IMG/VR virus record: IMGVR_UViG_3300014656_000031
Location: 1 to 59,708 of that record
From: a virus
Lineage: Duplodnaviria > Caudoviricetes
Reading direction: 5' to 3' (one strand)
DNA length: 59,708 bases
Shown here: one piece after another, positions 1,910 to 9,111 of the stretch
Layout of the letters: every line of letters starts with the position of its first letter
Position numbering within the stretch: the stretch's first letter is position 1
Notes under the pieces: model-generated
The model's database searches: none
What the model was told of the DNA's origin: nothing
Seen by the model: the letters and a program-made list of their open reading frames with translations, nothing else
Position numbers and translations under genes: made by a program

Positions 1910-1985
1910 GCCGTGATAGCACAATTGGTACTGCACGTCTTTCGTAAAGACAAGATTGTCGATTCGAATTCGGCTCACGGCTCCA
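1910..1985 (+). tRNA. tRNA-Thr(CGT)
   Basis: acceptor GCCGTGA/TCACGGC, loop TT-CGT-AA, TTCGAAT T-loop, encoded CCA. Confidence 0.9.
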
Positions 1986-1987
1986 AT

Positions 1988-2061
1988 ACGGGATTAACAT
2001 AATGGAAGTGTGACAGGCCTACACCCTGTTAGTGGGGGTTCAATTCCCTCATCCCGTACCA
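1988..2061 (+). tRNA. tRNA-Val(TAC)
   Basis: acceptor ACGGGAT/ATCCCGT, stem ACAGG/CCTGT, loop CC-TAC-AC, CCA. Confidence 0.85.
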
Positions 2062-2075
2062 TTTTAGTTTTCAAT

Positions 2076-2150
2076 GCCTCTATAATGTAATGTATAGCAT
2101 AATACGCTTCGAACGTATTAGTGTGGGTTAGATTCCTACTAGAGGCACCA
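2076..2150 (+). tRNA. tRNA-Arg(TCG)
   Basis: acceptor GCCTCTA/TAGAGGC, loop CT-TCG-AA, CCA. Confidence 0.88.
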
Positions 2151-2156
2151 TTTTAT

Positions 2157-2229
2157 GTGTTATTGGTGTTCAACGGCAGCACGTCAGGTTTCCACCCTGA
2201 AGGTAGGGATTCAATTTCCCTATAACACT
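2157..2229 (+). tRNA. tRNA-Gly(TCC), no encoded CCA
   Basis: acceptor GTGTTAT/ATAACAC, stem TCAGG/CCTGA, loop TT-TCC-AC. Confidence 0.85.
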
Positions 2230-2238
2230 CTGTTTAAT

Positions 2239-2313
2239 GTGTCTATGGTGATAATAGTAACACGTCTGATTGCCTATCAGAAGATTCCGGGGCAGTTTCG
2301 GATAGACACTCCA
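2239..2313 (+). tRNA. tRNA-Gly(GCC)
   Basis: acceptor GTGTCTA/TAGACAC, loop TT-GCC-TA, atypical T-loop GGCAGTT, CCA. Confidence 0.82.
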
Positions 2314-2320
2314 TTCTATT

Positions 2321-2397
2321 GCCTCCATCGTCTAACGGCTTAGGATATCTGGTTCTCAACCAGAAGATTGCCAGTTCAAACCTGACTGGAGGCACCA
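2321..2397 (+). tRNA. tRNA-Glu(CTC)
   Basis: acceptor GCCTCCA/TGGAGGC, loop TT-CTC-AA, CCA. Confidence 0.88.
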
Positions 2398-2406
2398 TTT
2401 ATTTTA

Positions 2407-2435
2407 TTGCCTTATTAATTAGTTTCCTATATAAT
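2407..2435 (+). promoter_or_regulatory. sigma70-type early promoter
   Basis: TTGCCT-17 bp-TATAAT. Confidence 0.75.
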
Positions 2436-2462
2436 TTTAAAAAATGAAGGATAATAAAAATT

Positions 2463-2734
2463 ATGCCAAATTCTTTAAATAAACCAATTAATTTCAATGA
2501 TATATTTAGTGAAATGTTTGGTGGGGACAATTCTAAATCAAAAGACAATCCAAAGGAAACTATTATTATTGTAAAAGCAAAGAAATTGATGATTATCTTC
2601 GTTCTAAATATCGTGATAAATTAGTAGTTGGTGTATTAGAACCTGATGGTAGTATTCGTGTTATCAAAAACGATATTTCTGAAACTATGACAACTGATGA
2701 ATTTAAAGAAAAGTACTTTGTGGACCTATTATGA
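2463..2734 (+). pseudogene. FVDLL-tail family gene split by a -1 frameshift
   Basis: frame 0 stops at 2624 (53 aa); -1 frame open 2537-2734 reads EIDDYLRSKY...TTDEFKEKYFVDLL*; join near GTA AAA GCA AAG (2571-2582). Confidence 0.75.
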
Positions 2735-2985
2735 ATTATGCAGTTTTTATAAACAATCACAACATGTGTATTGAAATATGGGCTAAAGATGGTCCAAATG
2801 CATGTAAATTGATTGGTCATAATTATTCCTCAAAGATGTACTGGGACTCTAAAAAACAATCACTGGAAGATTGGGTTGATCATATTGAAAAAAATTTTCC
2901 AGGTCGGGATAAAAATGGATTTAAATGTACACGTTATAATACTTTAGAGGAAGTGATGGAACAACACTTTGTGGACCTGTTATAA
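2731..2985 (+). CDS. FVDLL-tail family small protein
   Basis: MNYAVF...YNTLEEVMEQHFVDLL*. Confidence 0.8.
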   Translation: MNYAVFINNHNMCIEIWAKDGPNACKLIGHNYSSKMYWDSKKQSLEDWVDHIEKNFPGRDKNGFKCTRYNTLEEVMEQHFVDLL

Positions 2986-3432
2986 GTTTCTTATAATCCA
3001 TATTTTATATGTTCTTCCAACTGGAATATCATGTAGTCTAGTGTGAATATAGGTTACCTCAACATTATGTTCCTTGAAAAAATTATAAATGTTCCAAGCT
3101 TGCTTCTTTAAGTGATCTTTACTGAATACTTCAATATCACCACTATTATCTCTTTTATCAATACCTAATCTTACAGCGCCATTCTTGAGTGCTAAAGTGT
3201 GTAGCATAAAATTTGGTGAATCTTTTTCACTTTCAGATAATCCGAACTGATCTAAATGATCTCTGATATATTGATCGTGCTTTGCATATTGAACAGGAAT
3301 AATTTGTCCAAACGGAAGCAACCAATAAACAATTTGAGGGGCTGCTCGATATATAGCCTGTTTATACAGATCATTGAATTTGTTAGATATTTCTTCAATA
3401 ATCAATTTGAATAATTTAGTAAAAGAATCCAT
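2980..3432 (-). CDS. hypothetical, putative internal head protein (W-x-x-P-x-G...H...G-x-x-R family)
   Basis: ATAAATA late motif just upstream; N-term MDSFTKLFKLIIEE; paralogous to 4421 and 16363 ORFs. Confidence 0.7.
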   Translation of the reverse strand: MDSFTKLFKLIIEEISNKFNDLYKQAIYRAAPQIVYWLLPFGQIIPVQYAKHDQYIRDHLDQFGLSESEKDSPNFMLHTLALKNGAVRLGIDKRDNSGDIEVFSKDHLKKQAWNIYNFFKEHNVEVTYIHTRLHDIPVGRTYKIWIIRNL

Positions 3433-3484
3433 ATTAATATTTATGCTTTTATGCCGCAGGTTTCGGTAAACACAGGAGTTTAAA

Positions 3485-3560
3485 CGCTAGGAAGTCAAAC
3501 GGCTGAGACTGCTCCCTCATAAGGAGAAAACAGCAAGTTCAATTCTTGCCCTAGCGACCA
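3485..3560 (+). tRNA. tRNA-Met(CAT), elongator or Ile2 type
   Basis: acceptor CGCTAGG/CCTAGCG fully paired, loop CT-CAT-AA, CCA. Confidence 0.85.
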
Positions 3561-3565
3561 ATTTT

Positions 3566-3640
3566 GTCTCTGTAGTGAAATGGATATCACAATAGGCTAC
3601 GAACCTGTAATTCCAGATTCGAATTCTGGCAGAGACGCCA
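3566..3640 (+). tRNA. tRNA-Arg(ACG)
   Basis: acceptor GTCTCTG/CAGAGAC, loop CT-ACG-AA, CCA. Confidence 0.9.
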
Positions 3641-3643
3641 TTT

Positions 3644-3698
3644 AGCCACTCCAACATCTTGACCCGTATGTTGGGGAAGAGGCTTAAATAAACGGGTC
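3644..3698 (+). ncRNA. candidate H-type pseudoknot RNA between tRNAs
   Basis: stem CTCCAACAT/ATGTTGGGG; loop GACCCGT (3661-3667) complementary to ACGGGTC (3692-3698). Confidence 0.55.
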
Positions 3699-3703
3699 CT
3701 TTT

Positions 3704-3778
3704 GCTCTTATGATGTAATGGATAGCATAAAAGTTTCCTGAACTTTTTGTACAGGTTCAAATCCTGTTTGGAGCACCA
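3704..3778 (+). tRNA. tRNA-Arg(CCT)
   Basis: stem AAAGT/ACTTT, loop TT-CCT-GA, GGTTCAAATCC T-arm, CCA. Confidence 0.85.
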
Positions 3779-3781
3779 ATC

Positions 3782-3855
3782 GCCCGTTTCGTTTAAAAGT
3801 AGGACGAGTCCTTGGTGAGGATTAAATTTGGGAGCGTTACCCAAAACGGGCTCCA
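3782..3855 (+). tRNA. tRNA-Thr(GGT)
   Basis: acceptor GCCCGTT/AACGGGC, loop TT-GGT-GA, atypical T-loop AGCGTTA, CCA. Confidence 0.8.
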
Positions 3856-3903
3856 TTTTAGATAAATATTTTAAAAGATATCATTTTAGATAAATATTTA
3901 AAA
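3855..3903 (+). repeat. tandem duplication of a late-promoter motif
   Basis: two near-identical copies of TTTTAGATAAATATTT(T)AAAA. Confidence 0.6.
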
Positions 3904-4094
3904 TGACATCTTTTAAAGAATATTTTGAAACACCAAACGATTTATGGATTGATTCAATACCAGAAGAACCCTATGATCCGTGTCCTTGTGGTTGTGGAAT
4001 GAAATGGAGATTCGTAGTTAAAGGTGGGGAAAAAGTTATTGCAGATCATGAAAAAAGATTTATTGAAAAAATGAAGGAACAATCACATGAATAA
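3903..4094 (+). CDS. small protein with SEC-C-like motif
   Basis: DPCPCGCGMKW; N-term MTSFKEYFE. Confidence 0.7.
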   Translation: MTSFKEYFETPNDLWIDSIPEEPYDPCPCGCGMKWRFVVKGGEKVIADHEKRFIEKMKEQSHE

Positions 4095-4434
4095 AGATGA
4101 CAAACTAATATTCGAATCATATTTTAATAAAAACAATGGTATTCCTGTGCACGTGGAATTAAACAAAATTTTACAAATTTTACAAAATTCAAAAACTGAA
4201 AGAGAAGCTAATGAATCAATGTTAACTGTGATACACGATGGCAAGCTTAGCGAAGATGCATTTTTAGAATATTTAGAAATAACACAAGTGACTGCTTATG
4301 ATGCCATGAAGGAGGCACTTACAGAAGAAGAAGAACCTAGTTTAGAAAATGAACCAGAGAAAATGTCTACTGTGGATAAAGAAATAGACCAATTATCTAT
4401 ACGTTCGTTTGAGAAAAATAATGCCAACATTTAA
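4087..4434 (+). CDS. acidic hypothetical, putative internal head protein
   Basis: N-term DDKLIFESY shared with 7528, 51917 and 52809 ORFs. Confidence 0.7.
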   Translation: MNKDDKLIFESYFNKNNGIPVHVELNKILQILQNSKTEREANESMLTVIHDGKLSEDAFLEYLEITQVTAYDAMKEALTEEEEPSLENEPEKMSTVDKEIDQLSIRSFEKNNANI

Positions 4435-4825
4435 GGACTATTTTAAAATGCATTTTGGCAAAATTGACAGAGCAGGATATTTTTGGATTATGCCAAACGG
4501 CGAAGTTATTGATGTGTCAGCTTCTACACATATGAATTATGCTAGGGCACACCCAGAAAAATTTAGAGTTCCAGCAAGCTATTTTGACGGAACAGAACCT
4601 CAACTTACAGCATTATTAAAATCTGGAGCTATTCGAGTAGGTACTCTTGATTATAAACTGTCTGCAGATGTTTCTTATTATACTTTCACTGATTTAAAAA
4701 GACAAGCTAGAAAAATATACGAACTTTTTTCCCATACTAAATTTGAAAAAATTCATTTACATAGATTTGAAGAACCTGTCAAAAATCTTGAAATTTCACT
4801 TGACAGGATTAAAGAATTATATTAA
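4421..4825 (+). CDS. hypothetical, W-x-x-P-x-G...H...G-x-x-R family
   Basis: MPTFKDYFK start; FWIMPNGEVI..H..LLKSGAIRVG. Confidence 0.7.
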   Translation: MPTFKDYFKMHFGKIDRAGYFWIMPNGEVIDVSASTHMNYARAHPEKFRVPASYFDGTEPQLTALLKSGAIRVGTLDYKLSADVSYYTFTDLKRQARKIYELFSHTKFEKIHLHRFEEPVKNLEISLDRIKELY

Positions 4826-4838
4826 TATATATAAAGAT

Positions 4839-4913
4839 AGCGGGGTACACTGGAGAGTCCAGGGATGGTCTCATAAGCCATCGACGCTGATTGCAAAACA
4901 GCTCCCGCCACCA
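4839..4913 (+). tRNA. atypical initiator-like tRNA-Met(CAT)
   Basis: A1:C72 mismatch, GCGGGG/TCCCGC acceptor, loop CT-CAT-AA, degenerate T-arm, CCA. Confidence 0.75.
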
Positions 4914-4939
4914 ATTTCAAAAGGATATTAAACAACTAT

Positions 4940-5017
4940 TGGCGCATAGAGTAATGGTAGCTCCCCAGACTTTGAATCTGGATGGTTGTGTTGGTTCAAC
5001 TCCAACTGCGCCAACCA
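4940..5017 (+). tRNA. tRNA-Gln(TTG)
   Basis: acceptor TGGCGCA/TGCGCCA, loop CT-TTG-AA, CCA. Confidence 0.88.
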
Positions 5018-5035
5018 TTTCCTTTTAATTTTAAT

Positions 5036-5124
5036 GCCAACGTCGGTTAGTGGCTATACCAGCAGATTTGTAATCTGCCATGTCGAAAGACATACCGGGA
5101 GTTCAAGTCTCTCCGTTGGCTCCA
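5036..5124 (+). tRNA. tRNA-Thr(TGT) with long variable arm
   Basis: acceptor GCCAACG/CGTTGGC + T73, loop TT-TGT-AA, V-arm ATGTC-GAAA-GACAT, CCA. Confidence 0.8.
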
Positions 5125-5136
5125 TTTAGTTTCTTC

Positions 5137-5165
5137 TTGACTTTCTCAAAGGTTTCATATATAAT
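5137..5165 (+). promoter_or_regulatory. sigma70-type early promoter
   Basis: TTGACT-17 bp-TATAAT. Confidence 0.8.
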
Positions 5166-5209
5166 TTAATTATAATAATTAAAAGCCATTACATGTTTGT
5201 AGGTTTACT

Positions 5210-5569
5210 ATGAAAATCTGTGTTTTATCACAAGAGCAACTTAAAACTTTTATTGAGATAAGAGATGATCATAAATATGGAAAATCATTTGAATATACAC
5301 ATTTTGCAGGACCTTTTCCACCAATAAACAACACTCCTTCTTGTTCTACTACACCAGAAAATATAAAAATGATGGAATTATATTATAAAGTTAAAAATGC
5401 AGATTTGGTTGTTGTTGATTGGGATGGAAAGAATTTTAGAGTTTTTAAAGATTGGGGTATATGTACAGTAGTAGAAGATACACGAGGACGGGTTCCGAAT
5501 GTGTGGAACCATGGAGATTTGATTAAAAAAGAAGAACTAGTAGAACAATATTTTGAAGAATTTTTATGA
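5210..5569 (+). CDS. FVDLL-tail family protein (variant)
   Basis: ends KKEELVEQYFEEFL*. Confidence 0.75.
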   Translation: MKICVLSQEQLKTFIEIRDDHKYGKSFEYTHFAGPFPPINNTPSCSTTPENIKMMELYYKVKNADLVVVDWDGKNFRVFKDWGICTVVEDTRGRVPNVWNHGDLIKKEELVEQYFEEFL

Positions 5570-6102
5570 AAAAAACTAAAGATATAACTAAGTACAACAT
5601 TAAATGGCAAATTTTACGGGCTAAAATTAAAGGCCCTGGTTATTCACTAAATGAGAAACTAACTGCTGTAGAAAAATATTTCAGAGAAGAACAGACCATA
5701 GATGCTTATGAAAGAGTATTAAACTTCTTAGAAGGTCTACAAAAAGGATATATAGGCAAAAATCCAAAGGCAGCAGAAATCGTAGAAAGCGAAATCAGTG
5801 AATGGCGACATTTTGATTCCACTAGAATGAAAAAAGAATCATCTATAATTCCTACCACAGATGAAATATTAGAATATTCATTTGGTGAAAGATTTCTTCT
5901 TTGGAAAGACTTATTTAAACGCAATCAAAAATGGTTAGAAAAAGGATATAACCAAAAAGAATTAAACAATTTCATGGATTTGTTATATAAAGCCTTTCAA
6001 GATAACAAAGAAGACGTGGGAGAAAATTATTCCTACAAAAAATTACAACAACTTCGAAAAAGTGCAGAATCTATAGAAAATACACATAAATTTTTCTTTT
6101 AA
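5566..6102 (+). CDS. hypothetical protein
   Basis: 178-aa ORF, ATGA-coupled. Confidence 0.75.
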   Translation: MKKTKDITKYNIKWQILRAKIKGPGYSLNEKLTAVEKYFREEQTIDAYERVLNFLEGLQKGYIGKNPKAAEIVESEISEWRHFDSTRMKKESSIIPTTDEILEYSFGERFLLWKDLFKRNQKWLEKGYNQKELNNFMDLLYKAFQDNKEDVGENYSYKKLQQLRKSAESIENTHKFFF

Positions 6103-6109
6103 TTAATCA

Positions 6110-6138
6110 TTGCCTTATAATAAATTTTATGGTAATAT
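6110..6138 (+). promoter_or_regulatory. sigma70-type promoter for the ncRNA
   Basis: TTGCCT-17 bp-TAATAT with TG extension. Confidence 0.6.
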
Positions 6139-6174
6139 ATTAAAAGATAAGTAAACGTTCTTTAAAAATAAAAT

Positions 6175-6460
6175 AACAGTGACTGAATAAGAGGTAGCCA
6201 GCCTCTAAGGTGTTAGCGACGATGAAGAATCTAGCTAGCTAGTAGGCCTGTGAAGCGTAAACCTGAAAAAGCGAGAGTTGGTCAACTCTTAGCTTCGTAA
6301 GAACGGGACAAATCGTAATATAAATCATTATGATGGCTGTATCCTGTTGAAGGTAAACAATCCTTCCATTCGTTAAGCGTTTGTCTGATCAACAACGTGA
6401 ATGTGGGTGAATGAACGTGTACAGAACTGAATTTATGGGTAGTCATGAATCCCATCTATT
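6175..6460 (+). ncRNA. large structured ncRNA candidate (ROOL/GOLLD-like context, class unassigned)
   Basis: ORF-free, GC-richer than flanks, at least six hairpins, long-range GTGACT/AGTCAT pairing, own promoter and terminator, within a tRNA cluster. Confidence 0.7.
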
Positions 6461-6468
6461 ATTTTTTT

Positions 6469-6502
6469 ACCCAGGATAATTAAACTTTATCCTGGGTTTT
6501 TT
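6469..6502 (+). terminator. rho-independent terminator
   Basis: ACCCAGGATAA/TTATCCTGGGT stem followed by T-run. Confidence 0.85.
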
Positions 6503-6509
6503 GTTTAAT

Positions 6510-6593
6510 GCCCTCGTAGCCGACCCGAGCTTCTAACTCGCGGAACCGTAATTGGAGCTGAAATTGCAGGTTCGAATCCTGCTGAGGGCGCCA
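6510..6593 (+). tRNA. rearranged tRNA-Arg(TCT)-like gene lacking a normal D-arm
   Basis: acceptor GCCCTCG/TGAGGGC+GCCA, perfect T-arm GCAGG-TTCGAAT-CCTGC, loop CT-TCT-AA, only 8 nt between acceptor and anticodon stem. Confidence 0.7.
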
Positions 6594-6602
6594 TTGTTTT
6601 CC

Positions 6603-6630
6603 TTGTCTTCTCCCTTGGTTCATATATAAT
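6603..6630 (+). promoter_or_regulatory. sigma70-type early promoter
   Basis: TTGTCT-16 bp-TATAAT, ATG at 6637. Confidence 0.6.
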
Positions 6631-6636
6631 TATAAT

Positions 6637-7281
6637 ATGAAAAACTTAAAATTCTATGTACAGCAACATTCGACAAGAATATCTCCTGGAAATTATCAAC
6701 TAGGTACAAAAATTCAAATACCCTATAGAGACTTTTGTGGGTATATTAAAACCTCTGCAAAATTAATGGGGTCTGATTGGATAAAACAAATTACGCAAAC
6801 TGAATTGCAAATACAACAAGTTATTAAGCGATGGTGTAATGCTTATGTTTCTACAGAAATTAAAGGGCAGCATATTCCTGTGATTGATTGGGATGGGGCA
6901 TTACACGATAAAAACCTCCCAGTATTAAAACATTTAGATGAAAATAATATTGGATATGTAATTTTTCACAGTACAACTGATTTAAGATACTGGATATTTA
7001 TTGACCAATTAGGAACTCATACACAATGCATTAAACTTATGGGCGATTGCCGAAATAAATACTCTGCTGGAGATCCATCCTATATCCATTATCAATCTCA
7101 AACTAAAAATATCGTAGTTAGAGCCTACCCCAAATTTATGGATATCCCTTCTCTTTTCATGTCCAGCGATCCCACAAAATACACCAAAAATTTCAAATTA
7201 TGGATAGACAGTTTTAATCAGTATTGGAAAGAACCACATATTCAAGAAGTAGTAGATCATTTCTTTGTGGAAAGCTTATGA
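6637..7281 (+). CDS. hypothetical, possible primase-polymerase-like fold, with FVDLL-type tail
   Basis: PVIDWD (DxD) and YVIFHST motifs; ends QEVVDHFFVESL*. Confidence 0.6.
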   Translation: MKNLKFYVQQHSTRISPGNYQLGTKIQIPYRDFCGYIKTSAKLMGSDWIKQITQTELQIQQVIKRWCNAYVSTEIKGQHIPVIDWDGALHDKNLPVLKHLDENNIGYVIFHSTTDLRYWIFIDQLGTHTQCIKLMGDCRNKYSAGDPSYIHYQSQTKNIVVRAYPKFMDIPSLFMSSDPTKYTKNFKLWIDSFNQYWKEPHIQEVVDHFFVESL

Positions 7282-7505
7282 AATTTCTCTTTATGCAATT
7301 TAAACATGCGCCAGAGATTGTTTATATAGCTAAAGCAGATACTCTAGACAGTCCTGCTACATATATACATTGTCCTGCCGGTATGGATAATTATCGTAAT
7401 ATAACAATTAAAAGTGAAATGCGCATAGACTCTTCATCATGGATCTATAAACTATATGACTCTTTAGAAGAATTAATGGAAGCTCATCTAGTCGATCTTT
7501 TATAA
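7278..7505 (+). CDS. FVDLL-tail family small protein
   Basis: MKFLF...YDSLEELMEAHLVDLL*. Confidence 0.8.
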   Translation: MKFLFMQFKHAPEIVYIAKADTLDSPATYIHCPAGMDNYRNITIKSEMRIDSSSWIYKLYDSLEELMEAHLVDLL

Positions 7506-7527
7506 CATAAAATGATAAATATTTAAT

Positions 7528-9111
7528 ATGAATACAGAAACTAAGCTGATTTATGAAGCGTATCAAACTATTTATGAATCTTGGTGGGACGATGTAGAAC
7601 AAGAAGGTCCTGAAAAAGATGTAAAAGCAGATGCAGAAAAAATAATTGCTTCAGAAAACGAAGAAGAAATATCAGCTATTGCACAAAAAGCTGCACATGA
7701 AATTCCTCCAGAACAGACAGAAGAAACTGCGGATAAAGAATGGGAAATCTCTGCCAGGTTTATGCCGTACTTGCAAGAAAAAATAAACAAGCTAAACAGA
7801 AAATCAGCAAAATTAGGCACTCCTCCAATTACTCTTACTAAAACCGGTGAGGAAATTCGTAAAATTACAAGTGAAGTAAATGGTGAAGAATTACTAGTAC
7901 AAATCATTAAAATTAAACTGCAAGGATCTGCTCCAGTATTGGACGGTTGGCAATTTGTGGCAACTATTGAACATATACCAGGCGGCAATATGATTTATAA
8001 AGTTCCTGGTTTAGATCTAAAAACTCCACTTACTACAATTTTTAAAAATCAACCACCTACTTGTGATTGGTGTAAAATTAATAGAAGCCGTTTAGAAACC
8101 TTTCTAATTCGCAAATTGGTTAATGGTGTTCCTGTAGAAGGAAAATGTGTAGGGCGAACATGTCTAAAGGATTTCTTGGGTGGCAATGATCCACAAAAGT
8201 ATTTAGCCTATGCAAAAAGTTTAACAGACATTATTGGAATGCTAGCTGAATTTGAAGCGGCTGGAGCAGAAAGCCCTCATCCCCGAGCTGCACATGCAGA
8301 TCAATATGTTGAGGCTTTTGGATTTCTATGTAGAGTAGCAACAAACATTCGTAATTTTGGTTGGATAAGTGCAGCTAAGGCTCGTGAGCAAGGAAGATCT
8401 TCTACAACTTCTGATGCCCTGATAGATATTAGCAATGCACAAAAAGGCAATCAACCTAAAAAATCAATTGAACAAGAAGACAAAGAACTAGCCCAAAAAA
8501 CTATAGATTGGGCTCAGAATGGTCTTCCTAAAAAAATTGAAGAAATTACAAATAAAATTGCTGCAGGAACTGCTTCTTCCTTCGAACAACAAAGCGTAGA
8601 TTATTTAAACAATTTACACACAGCATTACAATCAAATTATTTAACTTGGAAGCAAGCACGAATTGCAGGGTCTGCTATTATAGCATATAAAAAAGAAACA
8701 GAATGGAAAGATAAACAAAAAGAACAAGCATCTAAATCCAATGAATGGGTGGGACAATTAGGTGGTAAAATTAGTAAATTACACGTAACCCTAAAAGGGA
8801 AAAACACTTTTCAAACTGATTATGGTATGTCTACTTTGGTGAGATTTGAAGATGACGTAGGAAATAAGCTAGCCTGGTTTGCTACAAATACAGATTCCTT
8901 AGGAGATTGGGATATCGGTACCTCCATGAATATTGATGGTACCGTTAAAGCCCATCAATTCTATCCACGAGGATCACAGAATAAACAAACTCTTCTAACA
9001 CGTGTTAAAAATTCTGATTTCATTAAGCCTCGAAAGGCACGACAACCAAAATTTGTTGTTCCTCCTGTTCCACCGAAAACAACAGGGCTAGATGCTTCTC
9101 CAGGATGGTAA
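7528..9111 (+). CDS. conserved phage protein, Zn-binding centre and probable C-terminal OB-fold
   Basis: CDWC...CVGRTCLKDFLG; C-term WVG...RFEDDVGNKLAWF...GTVKAH...QTLLTRVK; N-term KLIYEAY. Confidence 0.7.
   Translation: MNTETKLIYEAYQTIYESWWDDVEQEGPEKDVKADAEKIIASENEEEISAIAQKAAHEIPPEQTEETADKEWEISARFMPYLQEKINKLNRKSAKLGTPPITLTKTGEEIRKITSEVNGEELLVQIIKIKLQGSAPVLDGWQFVATIEHIPGGNMIYKVPGLDLKTPLTTIFKNQPPTCDWCKINRSRLETFLIRKLVNGVPVEGKCVGRTCLKDFLGGNDPQKYLAYAKSLTDIIGMLAEFEAAGAESPHPRAAHADQYVEAFGFLCRVATNIRNFGWISAAKAREQGRSSTTSDALIDISNAQKGNQPKKSIEQEDKELAQKTIDWAQNGLPKKIEEITNKIAAGTASSFEQQSVDYLNNLHTALQSNYLTWKQARIAGSAIIAYKKETEWKDKQKEQASKSNEWVGQLGGKISKLHVTLKGKNTFQTDYGMSTLVRFEDDVGNKLAWFATNTDSLGDWDIGTSMNIDGTVKAHQFYPRGSQNKQTLLTRVKNSDFIKPRKARQPKFVVPPVPPKTTGLDASPGW

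What the first reader, a model, noticed from the sequence alone, without database searches (positions are those of the whole stretch)
6510..6593. tRNA-Arg(TCT) with the D-loop apparently relocated 3' of the anticodon arm
Seen: only TAGCCGAC separates acceptor and anticodon stems, while a 24-nt segment after the anticodon arm (GGAACCGTAATTGGAGCTGAAATT) contains the D-loop-like TAATTGGA. Acceptor, T-arm and CCA are intact, unlike a decaying pseudogene. Inference: a topologically rearranged tRNA that may rebuild the elbow from the variable region, or a tRNA mimic acting as a decoy.
Basis: partly seen in the sequence, partly recalled or inferred. Interest (0 to 1): 0.72.

Follow-up and report, generated by a model that had tools for sequence, protein, structure and literature searches.

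The report
Rearranged arginine tRNA in phages
This is a real gene for an arginine tRNA whose D-loop sits after the anticodon arm instead of before it, one member of a large, overlooked family carried by many phages, so it looks like a natural tRNA that does not follow the textbook cloverleaf.

Summary
Window 6510-6593 has a 7-bp acceptor stem, an 8-nt connector, an anticodon arm (UCU), a 24-nt segment holding a D-loop-like UAAUUGGA, a canonical T arm and CCA. ARAGORN misses it, and Rfam tRNA scores 28.6 bits against a cut-off of 29.

It is not a one-off. I collected 107 distinct sequences with the same order of parts from phage contigs, named phages and a few bacterial MAGs.

Covariation shows that connector nt 10-13 pair with two split segments that flank the D-loop-like motif. 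The anticodon arm is therefore nested inside the D-stem, and the "D-loop" is an 8-nt bulge.

Anticodons are Arg in 96 of 107 sequences, Ile in 10 and CAU in 1. Arg members keep an A at the place of identity nucleotide A20.

AGA makes up 53% of this phage's Arg codons, and this is the only UCU tRNA in the window.

The most likely reading is a working tRNA-Arg(UCU) with a rearranged core. Expression, charging and 3D fold are untested. Eight literature searches found no description.

The parts
6510..6516 (+). acceptor stem, 5' strand (nt 1-7)
   Evidence: Pairs 7 of 7 with 6583-6589. In alignment A1 all 7 acceptor pairs show changes on both sides.
6517..6518 (+). U8 A9, invariant dinucleotide after the acceptor stem
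   Evidence: UA follows the acceptor stem in 107 of 107 family members. It could pair with U-G at 6559-6560. Both sides are invariant or nearly so, so this cannot be tested.
6519..6520 (+). outer D-stem pairs, 5' strand (G10 C11), called H3 here
   Evidence: Pairs with 6557-6558. Columns 10-48 (GC 16, AU 15, CG 3, none unpaired) and 11-47 (33 of 34 paired) covary in A1. By mutual information they rank 5th and 17th of 3160 column pairs. Among all members with an 8-nt connector, 50 of 52 and 48 of 52 are paired.
6521..6522 (+). inner D-stem pairs, 5' strand (C12 G13), called H2 here
   Evidence: Pairs with 6547-6548. A positional test on 107 members gives 284 of 321 cells paired in register, against 24-222 in shifted registers. 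The middle pair is GC 95, AU 6, CG 2, UA 2. Coliphages Antha and EC6 have CUC/GAG, Yaboi CGC/GCG and Mildred21 CCG/CGG.
6523..6524 (+). A14 C15, joint between the D-stem and the anticodon stem
   Evidence: In A1 position 15 pairs with position 33 in 29 of 34 sequences. In the window C15 can pair with G6542.
6525..6541 (+). anticodon arm: stem 6525-6529 with 6537-6541, loop 6530-6536, anticodon UCU at 6532-6534
   Evidence: The stem has 4 Watson-Crick pairs plus a C-C mismatch, or 6 pairs with C6541 bulged. U33 and A37 are present, as in 104 of 107 members.
6542..6546 (+). spacer GGAAC between the anticodon stem and the 3' strand of H2
   Evidence: It is one nt longer than in the 80-nt class.
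6547..6548 (+). inner D-stem pairs, 3' strand (C G)
   Evidence: Lies directly 5' of the D-loop-like motif in all members. Pairing evidence as given for 6521-6522.
6549..6556 (+). D-loop-like motif UAAUUGGA, an 8-nt bulge between H2 and H3
   Evidence: The motif is UAAUUGGA in 56 and UAACUGGA in 31 of 107 members. Its last base is A in 95 of 96 Arg members; the exception is a misplaced regular-expression match.
6557..6558 (+). outer D-stem pairs, 3' strand (G C)
6559..6565 (+). A-rich joint UGAAAUU leading to the T stem
   Evidence: The family consensus is UGAAAAU.
6566..6582 (+). T arm: stem 6566-6570 with 6578-6582, loop UUCGAAU
   Evidence: 5 of 5 pairs. This is the part the Rfam tRNA model aligns with high posterior probability.
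6583..6589 (+). acceptor stem, 3' strand
6590..6593 (+). discriminator G and encoded CCA
   Evidence: CCA is encoded in 31 of the 65 unique sequences parsed.

Best explanation
Window 6510-6593 encodes a tRNA-Arg with anticodon UCU, which reads AGA. It belongs to a widespread family of tRNAs with a rearranged core, carried in the tRNA gene arrays of phages and of a few bacteria.

Structure supported by comparison:
- The acceptor stem, T arm and anticodon stem-loop are ordinary.
- There is no D hairpin between the acceptor and anticodon stems.
- Connector nt 10-13 instead form a 4-bp D-stem with a split partner strand: two nt just before the D-loop-like UAAYUGGA and two nt just after it.
- The anticodon arm therefore sits where the D-loop normally sits, as a coaxial extension of the D-stem.
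- The D-loop-like motif is an 8-nt bulge, and the molecule is a three-way junction.

Inferred, not shown:
- The bulge presents its GG to the unchanged T-loop and rebuilds the elbow.
- Its final A serves as identity nucleotide A20 for the host arginyl-tRNA synthetase, together with C35 and U36.
- The RNA is cut out, charged and used on the ribosome to supply AGA decoding for this AT-rich phage.

Why the fold is rearranged is unknown.
For: Family:
- 98 viral contigs match an architecture-specific pattern.
- In one search, 61 of 65 parsed unique sequences have the same part order and an Arg anticodon.
- A model built without the window scores it 84.8 bits.
- 107 distinct members were collected in all.

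Structure:
- On an ungapped alignment of 34 sequences, 94.8% of cells pair against 67.1% in shuffles (0 of 500 shuffles reach it) and 39-51% in slid registers.
- Pairs 10-48 and 11-47 covary.
- The inner pairs covary across the wider set.

Decoding features:
- The 7-nt loop has U33 and A37 in 104 of 107 members.
- Anticodons are UCU 67, ACG 15, UCG 7, CCU 7, UAU 7, GAU 3 and CAU 1.
- The last base of the D-like motif is A in 95 of 96 Arg members and U in 10 of 11 Ile/CAU members.
- The discriminator is A in 11 of 11 Ile/CAU members.
- A20, C35 and position 36 are the main arginine identity elements in E. coli (PMC9976931, passages of section 9).

Use:
- 73 of 83 loci hold the gene among canonical tRNAs.
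- Several arrays of 20-26 canonical tRNAs (L047, L094, L020, L050) have no canonical Arg tRNA, only the rearranged one.
- The window holds canonical Arg UCG, ACG and CCU but no other UCU.
- AGA is 257 of 483 Arg codons in the window's 37 long ORFs.

Feasibility: E. coli's translation apparatus accepted a synthetic tRNA lacking the whole D-arm (PMC11551756, abstract and passages).
Against: - There are no data on expression, processing, charging or 3D fold. No RNA run holds this phage.
- The window copy has a C-C mismatch or a bulged C in the anticodon stem, which is rare in the family (1 of 34 unpaired at that pair).
- It lies 13 nt after a terminator-like hairpin, and no convincing promoter lies in between.
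- RNAalifold predicts only the three long helices, not the short D-stem pairs.
- The single-sequence minimum-energy fold differs from the proposed fold: -29.9 against -26.0 kcal/mol.
- The discriminator is U or C in 29 of 96 Arg members, whereas A/G73 is cited for arginine identity.
- 11 of 83 loci also carry a canonical Arg tRNA with the same anticodon. All 5 bacterial MAGs examined have a canonical tRNA-Arg(UCU) elsewhere. The rearranged form is therefore not always needed for plain decoding.
- The window is about a quarter of the phage genome, so a canonical UCU tRNA may lie outside it.
Confidence: 0.7

Rival explanations
1. It is a working tRNA whose rearranged core was selected because it escapes something that recognises the normal D-arm or core. 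That could be a host tRNA-targeting defence nuclease or modifier, or the phage's own attack on host tRNAs. This extends the best explanation rather than excluding it.
For: - The rearranged form sits beside a canonical tRNA with the same anticodon in 11 of 83 loci.
- It rides in accessory tRNA arrays of bacteria that already own a canonical tRNA-Arg(UCU). This suggests a role beyond plain supply.
- Phage tRNAs that evade tRNA-targeting defences are documented. I saw only the search listings and abstracts of PMC10264068, PMC11555353 and PMC11464382.
Against: - No defence system aimed at tRNA-Arg or tRNA-Ile, and none that reads the D-arm, was tied to these loci in any call.
- The anticodon loop is ordinary (CUUCUAA), so cleavage in the loop would not be avoided by sequence.
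- The neighbouring genes in the window have no known function.
Confidence: 0.25
2. It is a tRNA-like decoy that is not used in translation. It would bind and divert a host protein that recognises tRNA-Arg, such as a nuclease, the synthetase or a modification enzyme.
For: - Its shape deviates from every tRNA the ribosome is known to use in bacteria.
- It duplicates canonical isoacceptors in some genomes.
- Conservation of the anticodon loop would also be expected of a nuclease decoy.
Against: - The acceptor stem, discriminator, T arm and often CCA are fully conserved, and all three helices covary. A decoy for an anticodon nuclease would not need them.
- In four arrays of 20-26 tRNAs it is the only Arg tRNA.
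- Anticodon, base at the A20 place and discriminator change together between Arg and Ile members, as identity rules demand.
Confidence: 0.1
3. It is a decaying tRNA pseudogene or a chance look-alike.
For: - Standard finders miss it.
- There is a flaw in the anticodon stem.
- It lies directly after a terminator-like hairpin.
Against: - 107 distinct homologues from phages of Proteobacteria and Actinobacteria, plus metagenomes, keep the same arrangement.
- Compensatory changes occur in all helices.
- The model score is 84.8 bits.
Confidence: 0.02
4. It is a charged tRNA dedicated to a use outside the ribosome, for example as an aminoacyl donor for a transferase.
For: Some cellular tRNAs with deviant cores serve such roles (recalled, no call). 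The duplication of canonical isoacceptors would fit.
Against: - No transferase gene was found beside it.
- The same architecture serves two amino acids and six or seven anticodons. That fits decoding better than a single donor role.
Confidence: 0.04

Closest known systems
Canonical bacterial and phage tRNA-Arg (Rfam RF00005 cloverleaf)
   Same: - 7-bp acceptor stem, discriminator and CCA.
- 5-bp T stem with a UUCGAAU loop.
- 7-nt anticodon loop with U33 and A37.
- Arg anticodon with C35.
- A GGA motif like G18 G19 A20.
- Location in a phage tRNA array.
   Different: - The order of parts differs. The D-stem encloses the anticodon arm instead of the D-loop, and the D-loop-like motif is a bulge in the 3' strand of the D-stem.
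- It is a three-way rather than a four-way junction.
- It scores below the Rfam cut-off and ARAGORN misses it.
D-arm-lacking mitochondrial tRNAs (such as metazoan mt tRNA-Ser) and the synthetic 'mini HisT' of E. coli
   Same: Only a short connector lies between the acceptor and anticodon stems. Such RNAs can still be charged and used in translation (PMC7609411 passages; PMC11551756 abstract and passages).
   Different: - Those RNAs are shortened and have lost the D-loop/T-loop contact.
- This one is full length (81 nt plus CCA).
- It keeps a canonical T-loop and a conserved D-loop-like motif.
- It has a covariation-supported D-stem made with the connector.
Class II tRNAs with a long variable arm (Leu, Ser, Tyr)
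   Same: Extra sequence lies between the anticodon and T arms. A few family variants carry a self-contained hairpin there (L047, L119, L057, L078).
   Different: - Class II tRNAs keep a normal D-arm, and their extra arm pairs with itself.
- Here the extra segment pairs with the 5' connector.
- Ordinary class II tRNA-Leu genes that matched the search pattern are clearly distinct (L088 group).
Viral tRNA-like structures, the tRNA-like domain of tmRNA, and bacterial Y-RNA-like tRNA mimics
   Same: These RNAs rebuild a tRNA-like acceptor and elbow with a non-standard strand order (recalled, no call).
   Different: - They do not decode.
- This RNA has a complete anticodon arm with synonymous anticodon variation.
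- No such Rfam family matched the window stretch.
Circularly permuted and split tRNA genes of some algae and archaea
   Same: The order of tRNA parts in the DNA departs from the standard (recalled, no call).
   Different: In those cases processing restores a normal cloverleaf. Here the 5' and 3' acceptor strands are at the gene's ends, and nothing suggests rejoining.

Membership tests
tRNA (canonical cloverleaf, Rfam RF00005) | 7-bp acceptor stem with discriminator; 3' CCA encoded or added | tested here: met
   7 of 7 pairs, discriminator G, CCA encoded.
tRNA (canonical cloverleaf, Rfam RF00005) | T arm: 5-bp stem and 7-nt loop with the UUCRA consensus | tested here: met
   5 of 5 pairs, loop UUCGAAU.
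tRNA (canonical cloverleaf, Rfam RF00005) | Anticodon arm with a 7-nt loop, U33 and a purine at 37 | tested here: met
   Loop CUUCUAA. The stem has 4 pairs plus a C-C mismatch, or a bulged C.
tRNA (canonical cloverleaf, Rfam RF00005) | D-arm hairpin between the acceptor and anticodon stems | tested here: not met
   Only 8 nt lie there. The Rfam alignment skips the region.
tRNA (canonical cloverleaf, Rfam RF00005) | Score at or above the curated gathering threshold of 29 bits | tested here: not met
   28.6 bits. Not listed at gathering thresholds. Not called by ARAGORN.
tRNA (functional definition) | Aminoacylation and decoding on the ribosome | not testable with these tools
   No RNA run holds the phage. 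No biochemical data exist.
Rearranged-core phage tRNA family defined here (model R1) | Significant match over the full length of the family covariance model | tested here: met
   84.8 bits, E 8.4e-20, model positions 1-80 of 80. The window was not in the training set.
Rearranged-core phage tRNA family defined here (model R1) | Connector nt 10-11 pair with the two nt after the D-like motif; nt 12-13 pair with the two nt before it | tested here: met
   Window pairs are G-C, C-G, C-G, G-C. Family covariation is shown.
Rearranged-core phage tRNA family defined here (model R1) | D-loop-like UAAYUGGA directly 3' of the inner pairs, ending in A in Arg members | tested here: met
   UAAUUGGA at 6549-6556. 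95 of 96 Arg members end in A.
D-arm-lacking (mitochondrial-type) tRNA | Loss of the D-arm together with loss of D-loop/T-loop elements, and reduced size | tested here: not met
   Full length. The canonical T-loop and the GG-containing motif are conserved.
Class II tRNA | Normal D-arm plus a self-pairing variable arm | tested here: not met
   There is no D-arm hairpin. The extra segment covaries with the connector, not with itself.

The most novel reading that the evidence does not exclude
Phages, and the mobile tRNA arrays of some bacteria, carry a previously unrecognised class of translation-competent tRNAs for Arg and Ile. These abandon the cloverleaf order: the anticodon arm is nested in the D-stem and the D-loop is displaced to a bulge, yet host synthetases still charge them. 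That would make them the first natural non-cloverleaf tRNAs working in the bacterial cytoplasm. The fold may have been kept because it resists host or phage factors that act on normal tRNA cores.
Probability: 0.5. Interest if true: 0.92.

Novelty: new variant of a known kind. Interest (0 to 1): 0.85.

Why it matters
[quoted passage not shown] If these RNAs are charged and decode, that rule has a natural exception, and it sits in easily grown coliphages.
- **Identity recognition.** It would show how much of the tRNA core can be rewired while ArgRS and IleRS identity, EF-Tu binding and ribosome use are kept. It offers a natural test of how ArgRS reads A20 in a different structural setting.
- **Annotation.** The genes are missing or mislabelled in public records. 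Labels seen were 'none', tRNA-OTHER, tRNA-Val(aac), tRNA-Phe(gaa), or an overlapping HNH endonuclease CDS. Counts of phage tRNAs therefore miss decoders of AGA and related codons, which biases codon-usage and tRNA-function studies.
- **Applications and biology.** The scaffold may be useful as an orthogonal tRNA. Its spread in accessory tRNA arrays raises the question of what selects for it.

Tried and rejected
**Searches that gave nothing or could not run**
- RNA evidence: no RNA holder is listed for window 5000-8000.
- Relatives cannot be drawn for a virus record. One call was sent with a wrong handle type and corrected through handles.
- Eight literature searches and passages of four papers gave no description of this architecture. 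Subscription journals and supplementary files were not visible.

**Folding methods that do not recover the proposed structure**
- Single-sequence folding gives an MFE that breaks the T arm and is not informative.
- RNAalifold on A1 gives only the acceptor stem, a 6-bp anticodon stem and the T arm. The short D-stem pairs rest on covariation counts, not on energy.

**Structural readings considered and dropped**
- A small hairpin CCG-UAAU-UGG within the extra segment. The nucleotides before CG vary without compensation towards UGG and instead covary with the connector.
- Reading the extra segment as a class II variable arm.
- A third inner pair, 14-36. Only 15 of 34 are paired in A1, nearly all failures having A14, so it is left open.
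- An outer helix in members with a 7-nt connector. No consistent partner for nt 10 was found at any of 10 offsets.

**Claims about distribution and use that had to be softened**
- 'Arg only': by-catch in the same loci includes Ile (UAU, GAU) and one CAU member.
- 'Virus only': arrays in Blastocatellia-type MAGs are flanked by cellular genes.
- 'Always fills a missing anticodon': 11 of 83 loci carry a canonical tRNA with the same anticodon.

**Context**
- The neighbouring proteins of the window have no Pfam match and one PHROG family of unknown function.

Full report
**1. The observation**

In order it contains:
- a 7-bp acceptor stem (6510-6516 with 6583-6589);
- the 8-nt connector UAGCCGAC;
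- an anticodon arm with loop CUUCUAA and anticodon UCU (6532-6534);
- a 24-nt segment that contains UAAUUGGA (6549-6556);
- a T arm with 5 pairs and loop UUCGAAU;
- discriminator G and an encoded CCA.

The outermost anticodon-stem pair is a C-C mismatch. Read the other way, a C is bulged and two further C-G pairs form.

Standard tools do not call this gene. ARAGORN finds 10 tRNAs at 1910-5124 but nothing here. Rfam at gathering thresholds finds 9 tRNAs and nothing here. With relaxed thresholds the tRNA model reaches 28.6 bits against a cut-off of 29 and aligns only the acceptor and T arm. No other Rfam family comes near its own threshold.

**2. It is one of many**

A blastn search of named phages found a 72-nt match at 80.6% identity in Microbacterium phage Pumpernickel. 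The match is unannotated, lies inside that phage's tRNA region and has the same order of parts.

I then searched for the D-loop-like motif placed 4-14 nt before the T-loop. No normal tRNA can have that spacing.
- The pattern hit 98 stretches of IMG/VR contigs.
- It hit 22 stretches in one genome each of 185,579 prokaryote species, all in MAG records.
- Of 65 unique viral sequences of 70-85 nt that I parsed, 61 had the window's architecture. All 61 carried an arginine anticodon (UCU 46, ACG 8, UCG 4, CCU 3). The other 4 were different things.
- A group of ordinary class II tRNA-Leu genes also matched the pattern and is clearly distinct.
- 19 of the 22 MAG hits have the architecture.

**3. Secondary structure from covariation**

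Thirty-four distinct members are exactly 80 nt long and align without gaps (A1). I tested this structure on A1:
- acceptor, 1-7 with 73-79;
- outer D-stem, 8-11 with 47-50;
- inner D-stem and anticodon stem, 12-20 with 28-38;
- T stem, 56-60 with 68-72.

On A1, 94.8% of cells pair. Shuffles give 67.1% and 0 of 500 reach the observed value. Registers slid by 1-3 columns give 38.6-50.9%.

The key pairs are the new ones.
- Pair 10-48 is G-C in 16 sequences, A-U in 15 and C-G in 3, with none unpaired.
- Pair 11-47 is paired in 33 of 34, with four pair types.
- In an unsupervised mutual-information ranking of all 3160 column pairs, 10-48 ranks 5th, among the classical stems, and 11-47 ranks 17th.
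- Among all 52 members with an 8-nt connector, a set that includes the window, these pairs hold in 50 and 48 sequences.

The inner pairs, 12-38 and 13-37, are invariant C-G and G-C in A1, so A1 cannot test them. In the wider set they change together:
- CUC/GAG in the coliphages Antha and EC6;
- CGC/GCG in Streptomyces phage Yaboi;
- CCG/CGG in Mildred21;
- CAG/CUG, CCC/GGG and others.

I also ran a positional test that does not use pairing to choose the columns. The 5' strand is the three nt ending one nt before the anticodon stem. The 3' strand is the three nt before the D-like motif. This gives 284 of 321 paired cells in register, against 24-222 in shifted registers.

RNAalifold alone predicts only the acceptor stem, a 6-bp anticodon stem and the T arm. 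The short helices therefore rest on covariation, not on energy. For the window, the proposed fold has -26.0 kcal/mol and the uninformative MFE has -29.9 kcal/mol.

**4. What the structure means**

In standard numbering, nt 10-13 still form a 4-bp D-stem, but its partner strand is split. Partners 22-23 lie just before the D-loop-like motif and partners 24-25 lie just after it.
- The D-stem closes over the anticodon arm instead of the D-loop.
- The anticodon stem continues the D-stem coaxially from its 13-22 end.
- The D-loop-like UAAYUGGA is an 8-nt bulge.
- An A-rich joint (UGAAAAU) leads to the T stem.
- The molecule is a three-way junction.

In the 55 members with a 7-nt connector only the inner helix is supported. 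There the motif lies in the junction strand.

The following is inference: the bulge's GG contacts the unchanged T-loop, as G18 and G19 do, and an L shape results.

**5. A wider census with a covariance model**

Model R1 was built from A1, which does not include the window. It scores the window at 84.8 bits, E 8.4e-20. The window's canonical tRNAs reach at most 31.9 bits.

R1 also found extra copies in the held loci that the exact pattern had missed, including non-Arg members. After removing 4 misparsed or truncated rows I had 107 distinct members.

| Feature | Count |
|---|---|
| Anticodons | UCU 67, ACG 15, UCG 7, CCU 7, UAU 7, GAU 3, CAU 1 |
| U33 and A37 present | 104 of 107 |
| Last base of D-like motif, Arg members | A in 95 of 96 (the exception is a misplaced regular-expression match) |
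| Last base of D-like motif, Ile/CAU members | U in 10 of 11 |
| Discriminator, Ile/CAU members | A in 11 of 11 |
| Discriminator, Arg members | G 39, A 28, U 28, C 1 |

A20, C35 and position 36, with A/G73, are given as the arginine identity set, and A20 as the main determinant for E. coli ArgRS (PMC9976931, passages of section 9).

A motif-free structural descriptor run over the 1.16 Mb of held loci returned 59 Arg and 9 Ile candidates, plus 8 misparsed canonical tRNAs. The loci were chosen through an Arg-type motif, so the Arg to Ile ratio is biased.

**6. Who carries it**

The EC6-type sequence occurs in 263 named phage records, 259 of them at 80% coverage or more. By first word of the organism name they are Escherichia 138, Salmonella 54 and Klebsiella 40. 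They include Felix O1-like phages, phi92 and a 355-kb coliphage.

Other queries reach Vibrio phages, Pseudomonas phages, Mycobacterium phage Wildcat, Streptomyces phages, a Limnohabitans phage and a Maribacter phage. I verified these by reading the sequence: Pumpernickel, Antha, EC6, Wildcat, Vibrio phage D419, Yaboi, Mildred21, Limnohabitans DC31 and heid.

Annotation is poor.
- Of the 60 rows listed, 47 show no feature, 2 tRNA-OTHER, 2 tRNA-Val, 2 tRNA-Phe, 4 an HNH endonuclease CDS and 1 a hypothetical protein. Two records have no annotation.
- Of the 30 spread rows, 21 show no feature and 2 show tRNA-OTHER.
- Not every row was checked by eye.
- No match exists in 5,426 complete E. coli genomes.

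**7. Not strictly viral**

Seven of the MAG hits are Blastocatellia records. In two that I examined, the tRNA array holding the gene is flanked by cellular genes: chlorite-dismutase-like, cytochrome c, lactate racemase, sirohaem synthase and globin. One HNH endonuclease lies nearby.

Seven of 121 sampled genomes of that class have a model match at E of 1e-8 or better. All five MAG genomes I tested also hold a canonical tRNA-Arg(UCU) on another contig. In bacteria the gene is therefore an accessory that rides in tRNA arrays.

**8. Use in phages**

- 73 of 83 loci with a rearranged Arg gene hold at least one canonical tRNA in the stretch I held.
- 47 of the 83 have no canonical Arg tRNA there, 25 have only other Arg anticodons, and 11 have the same anticodon.
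- In four arrays of 20-26 canonical tRNAs (L047, L094, L020, L050) the rearranged genes are the only Arg tRNAs.
- The loci are partial, so absences are not proof.

In the window the canonical Arg tRNAs carry UCG, ACG and CCU, and the rearranged one supplies UCU. AGA is 257 of 483 Arg codons (53%) in 37 ORFs of 150 codons or more. The window is about 25% of the phage genome, so a canonical UCU tRNA elsewhere cannot be excluded.

**9. Context in the window**

The gene lies 13 nt after a strong terminator-like hairpin with a U tract (6469-6497). It lies just before a promoter-like site (6603-6630) and an ORF at 6637-7281. No convincing promoter lies between the hairpin and the gene. It may be read through or processed from a longer transcript, but that is not known. 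The neighbouring proteins have no Pfam match and one PHROG family of unknown function. The contig comes from groundwater metagenomes and no RNA run is listed for it.

**10. Reading and novelty**

The best reading is a functional tRNA-Arg(UCU) with a rearranged core (confidence 0.7).
- Shown: the family, the order of parts, the helices, and the co-variation of identity positions with the anticodon.
- Inferred: elbow formation, charging and decoding.
- Feasibility: E. coli's translation apparatus accepted a synthetic tRNA without a D-arm (PMC11551756, abstract and passages).
- Rivals: selection of the fold for escape from tRNA-targeting factors (an extension, not an exclusive alternative), a decoy, a non-ribosomal donor, and a pseudogene. 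The pseudogene reading is effectively excluded for the family.

Eight full-text searches and passages of four papers gave no description of this architecture. Rfam 15 has no family for it. Subscription journals and supplementary files were not visible, so prior description cannot be ruled out.

I rate it a new variant of a known kind, a tRNA with a new core topology. It is of high interest because it can be tested directly in common coliphages.

Noticed in passing
window 6469-6507: A strong terminator-like hairpin (11 pairs, loop of 7) followed by a U tract ends 13 nt before the rearranged tRNA. Rfam weakly aligns it to terminator parts of several leaders. How the tRNA is transcribed past it is unclear.
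   Followed up: partly
window 6103-6468: About 366 nt have no + strand ORF of 40 codons or more. They lie between the ORF ending at 6102 and the hairpin. Only a 57-codon ORF lies on the minus strand, and it has no family match.
   Followed up: no
window 5036-5124: The canonical tRNA-Thr(UGU) is 89 nt long and has a 14-nt hairpin insertion in the variable region. A long extra arm is unusual for Thr. tRNA-Gln at 4940-5017 also has 5 extra nt there.
   Followed up: no
L021 13660-13751, L036 4973-5064, L011 8315-8405, L027 3334-3427 and others: Many phage loci hold a 90-94-nt tRNA-Ile(UAU). It has a 3-bp D-stem, a 6-bp anticodon stem and a long extra arm, and ARAGORN places the anticodon at position 31. 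This is a second odd tRNA type, distinct from the family reported here.
   Followed up: partly
L021, L032, L043, L044, L049, L053, L055: ARAGORN calls permuted tmRNA genes with tags such as ANDNFAPRLALAA right next to the rearranged tRNA-Arg in several phage contigs.
   Followed up: no
L058 430-457 and 733-760, L019, L056: A repeated element has an acceptor-like stem, a CGUAACUGGA motif and a T arm, but no anticodon arm. It looks like a tRNA-like mini-element and occurs twice in L058.
   Followed up: no
L063 4709-4780, L079 3308-3379: A 66-72-nt tRNA-like sequence carries the same D-like motif and T arm but has a different 5' half and no clear anticodon arm.
   Followed up: no
L064 11904-11979: ARAGORN calls a tRNA with anticodon CUA, labelled Pyl, in a 362-kb viral contig. 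That contig also holds four rearranged tRNAs. This may be an amber suppressor.
   Followed up: no
L101 5172-5765; L128 1-59; L130 92-177; L001 770-1195: HNH or homing endonuclease genes lie directly beside the rearranged tRNA in a Blastocatellia MAG array, in Mildred21, in heid and in Pumpernickel. In Pumpernickel an RtcB-like RNA ligase gene lies upstream.
   Followed up: no
L126 (Vibrio phage D419): The record's tRNA locus tags jump from 0009 to 0011 exactly where the unannotated rearranged tRNA-Arg(ACG) lies. A prediction may have been dropped during annotation.
   Followed up: no
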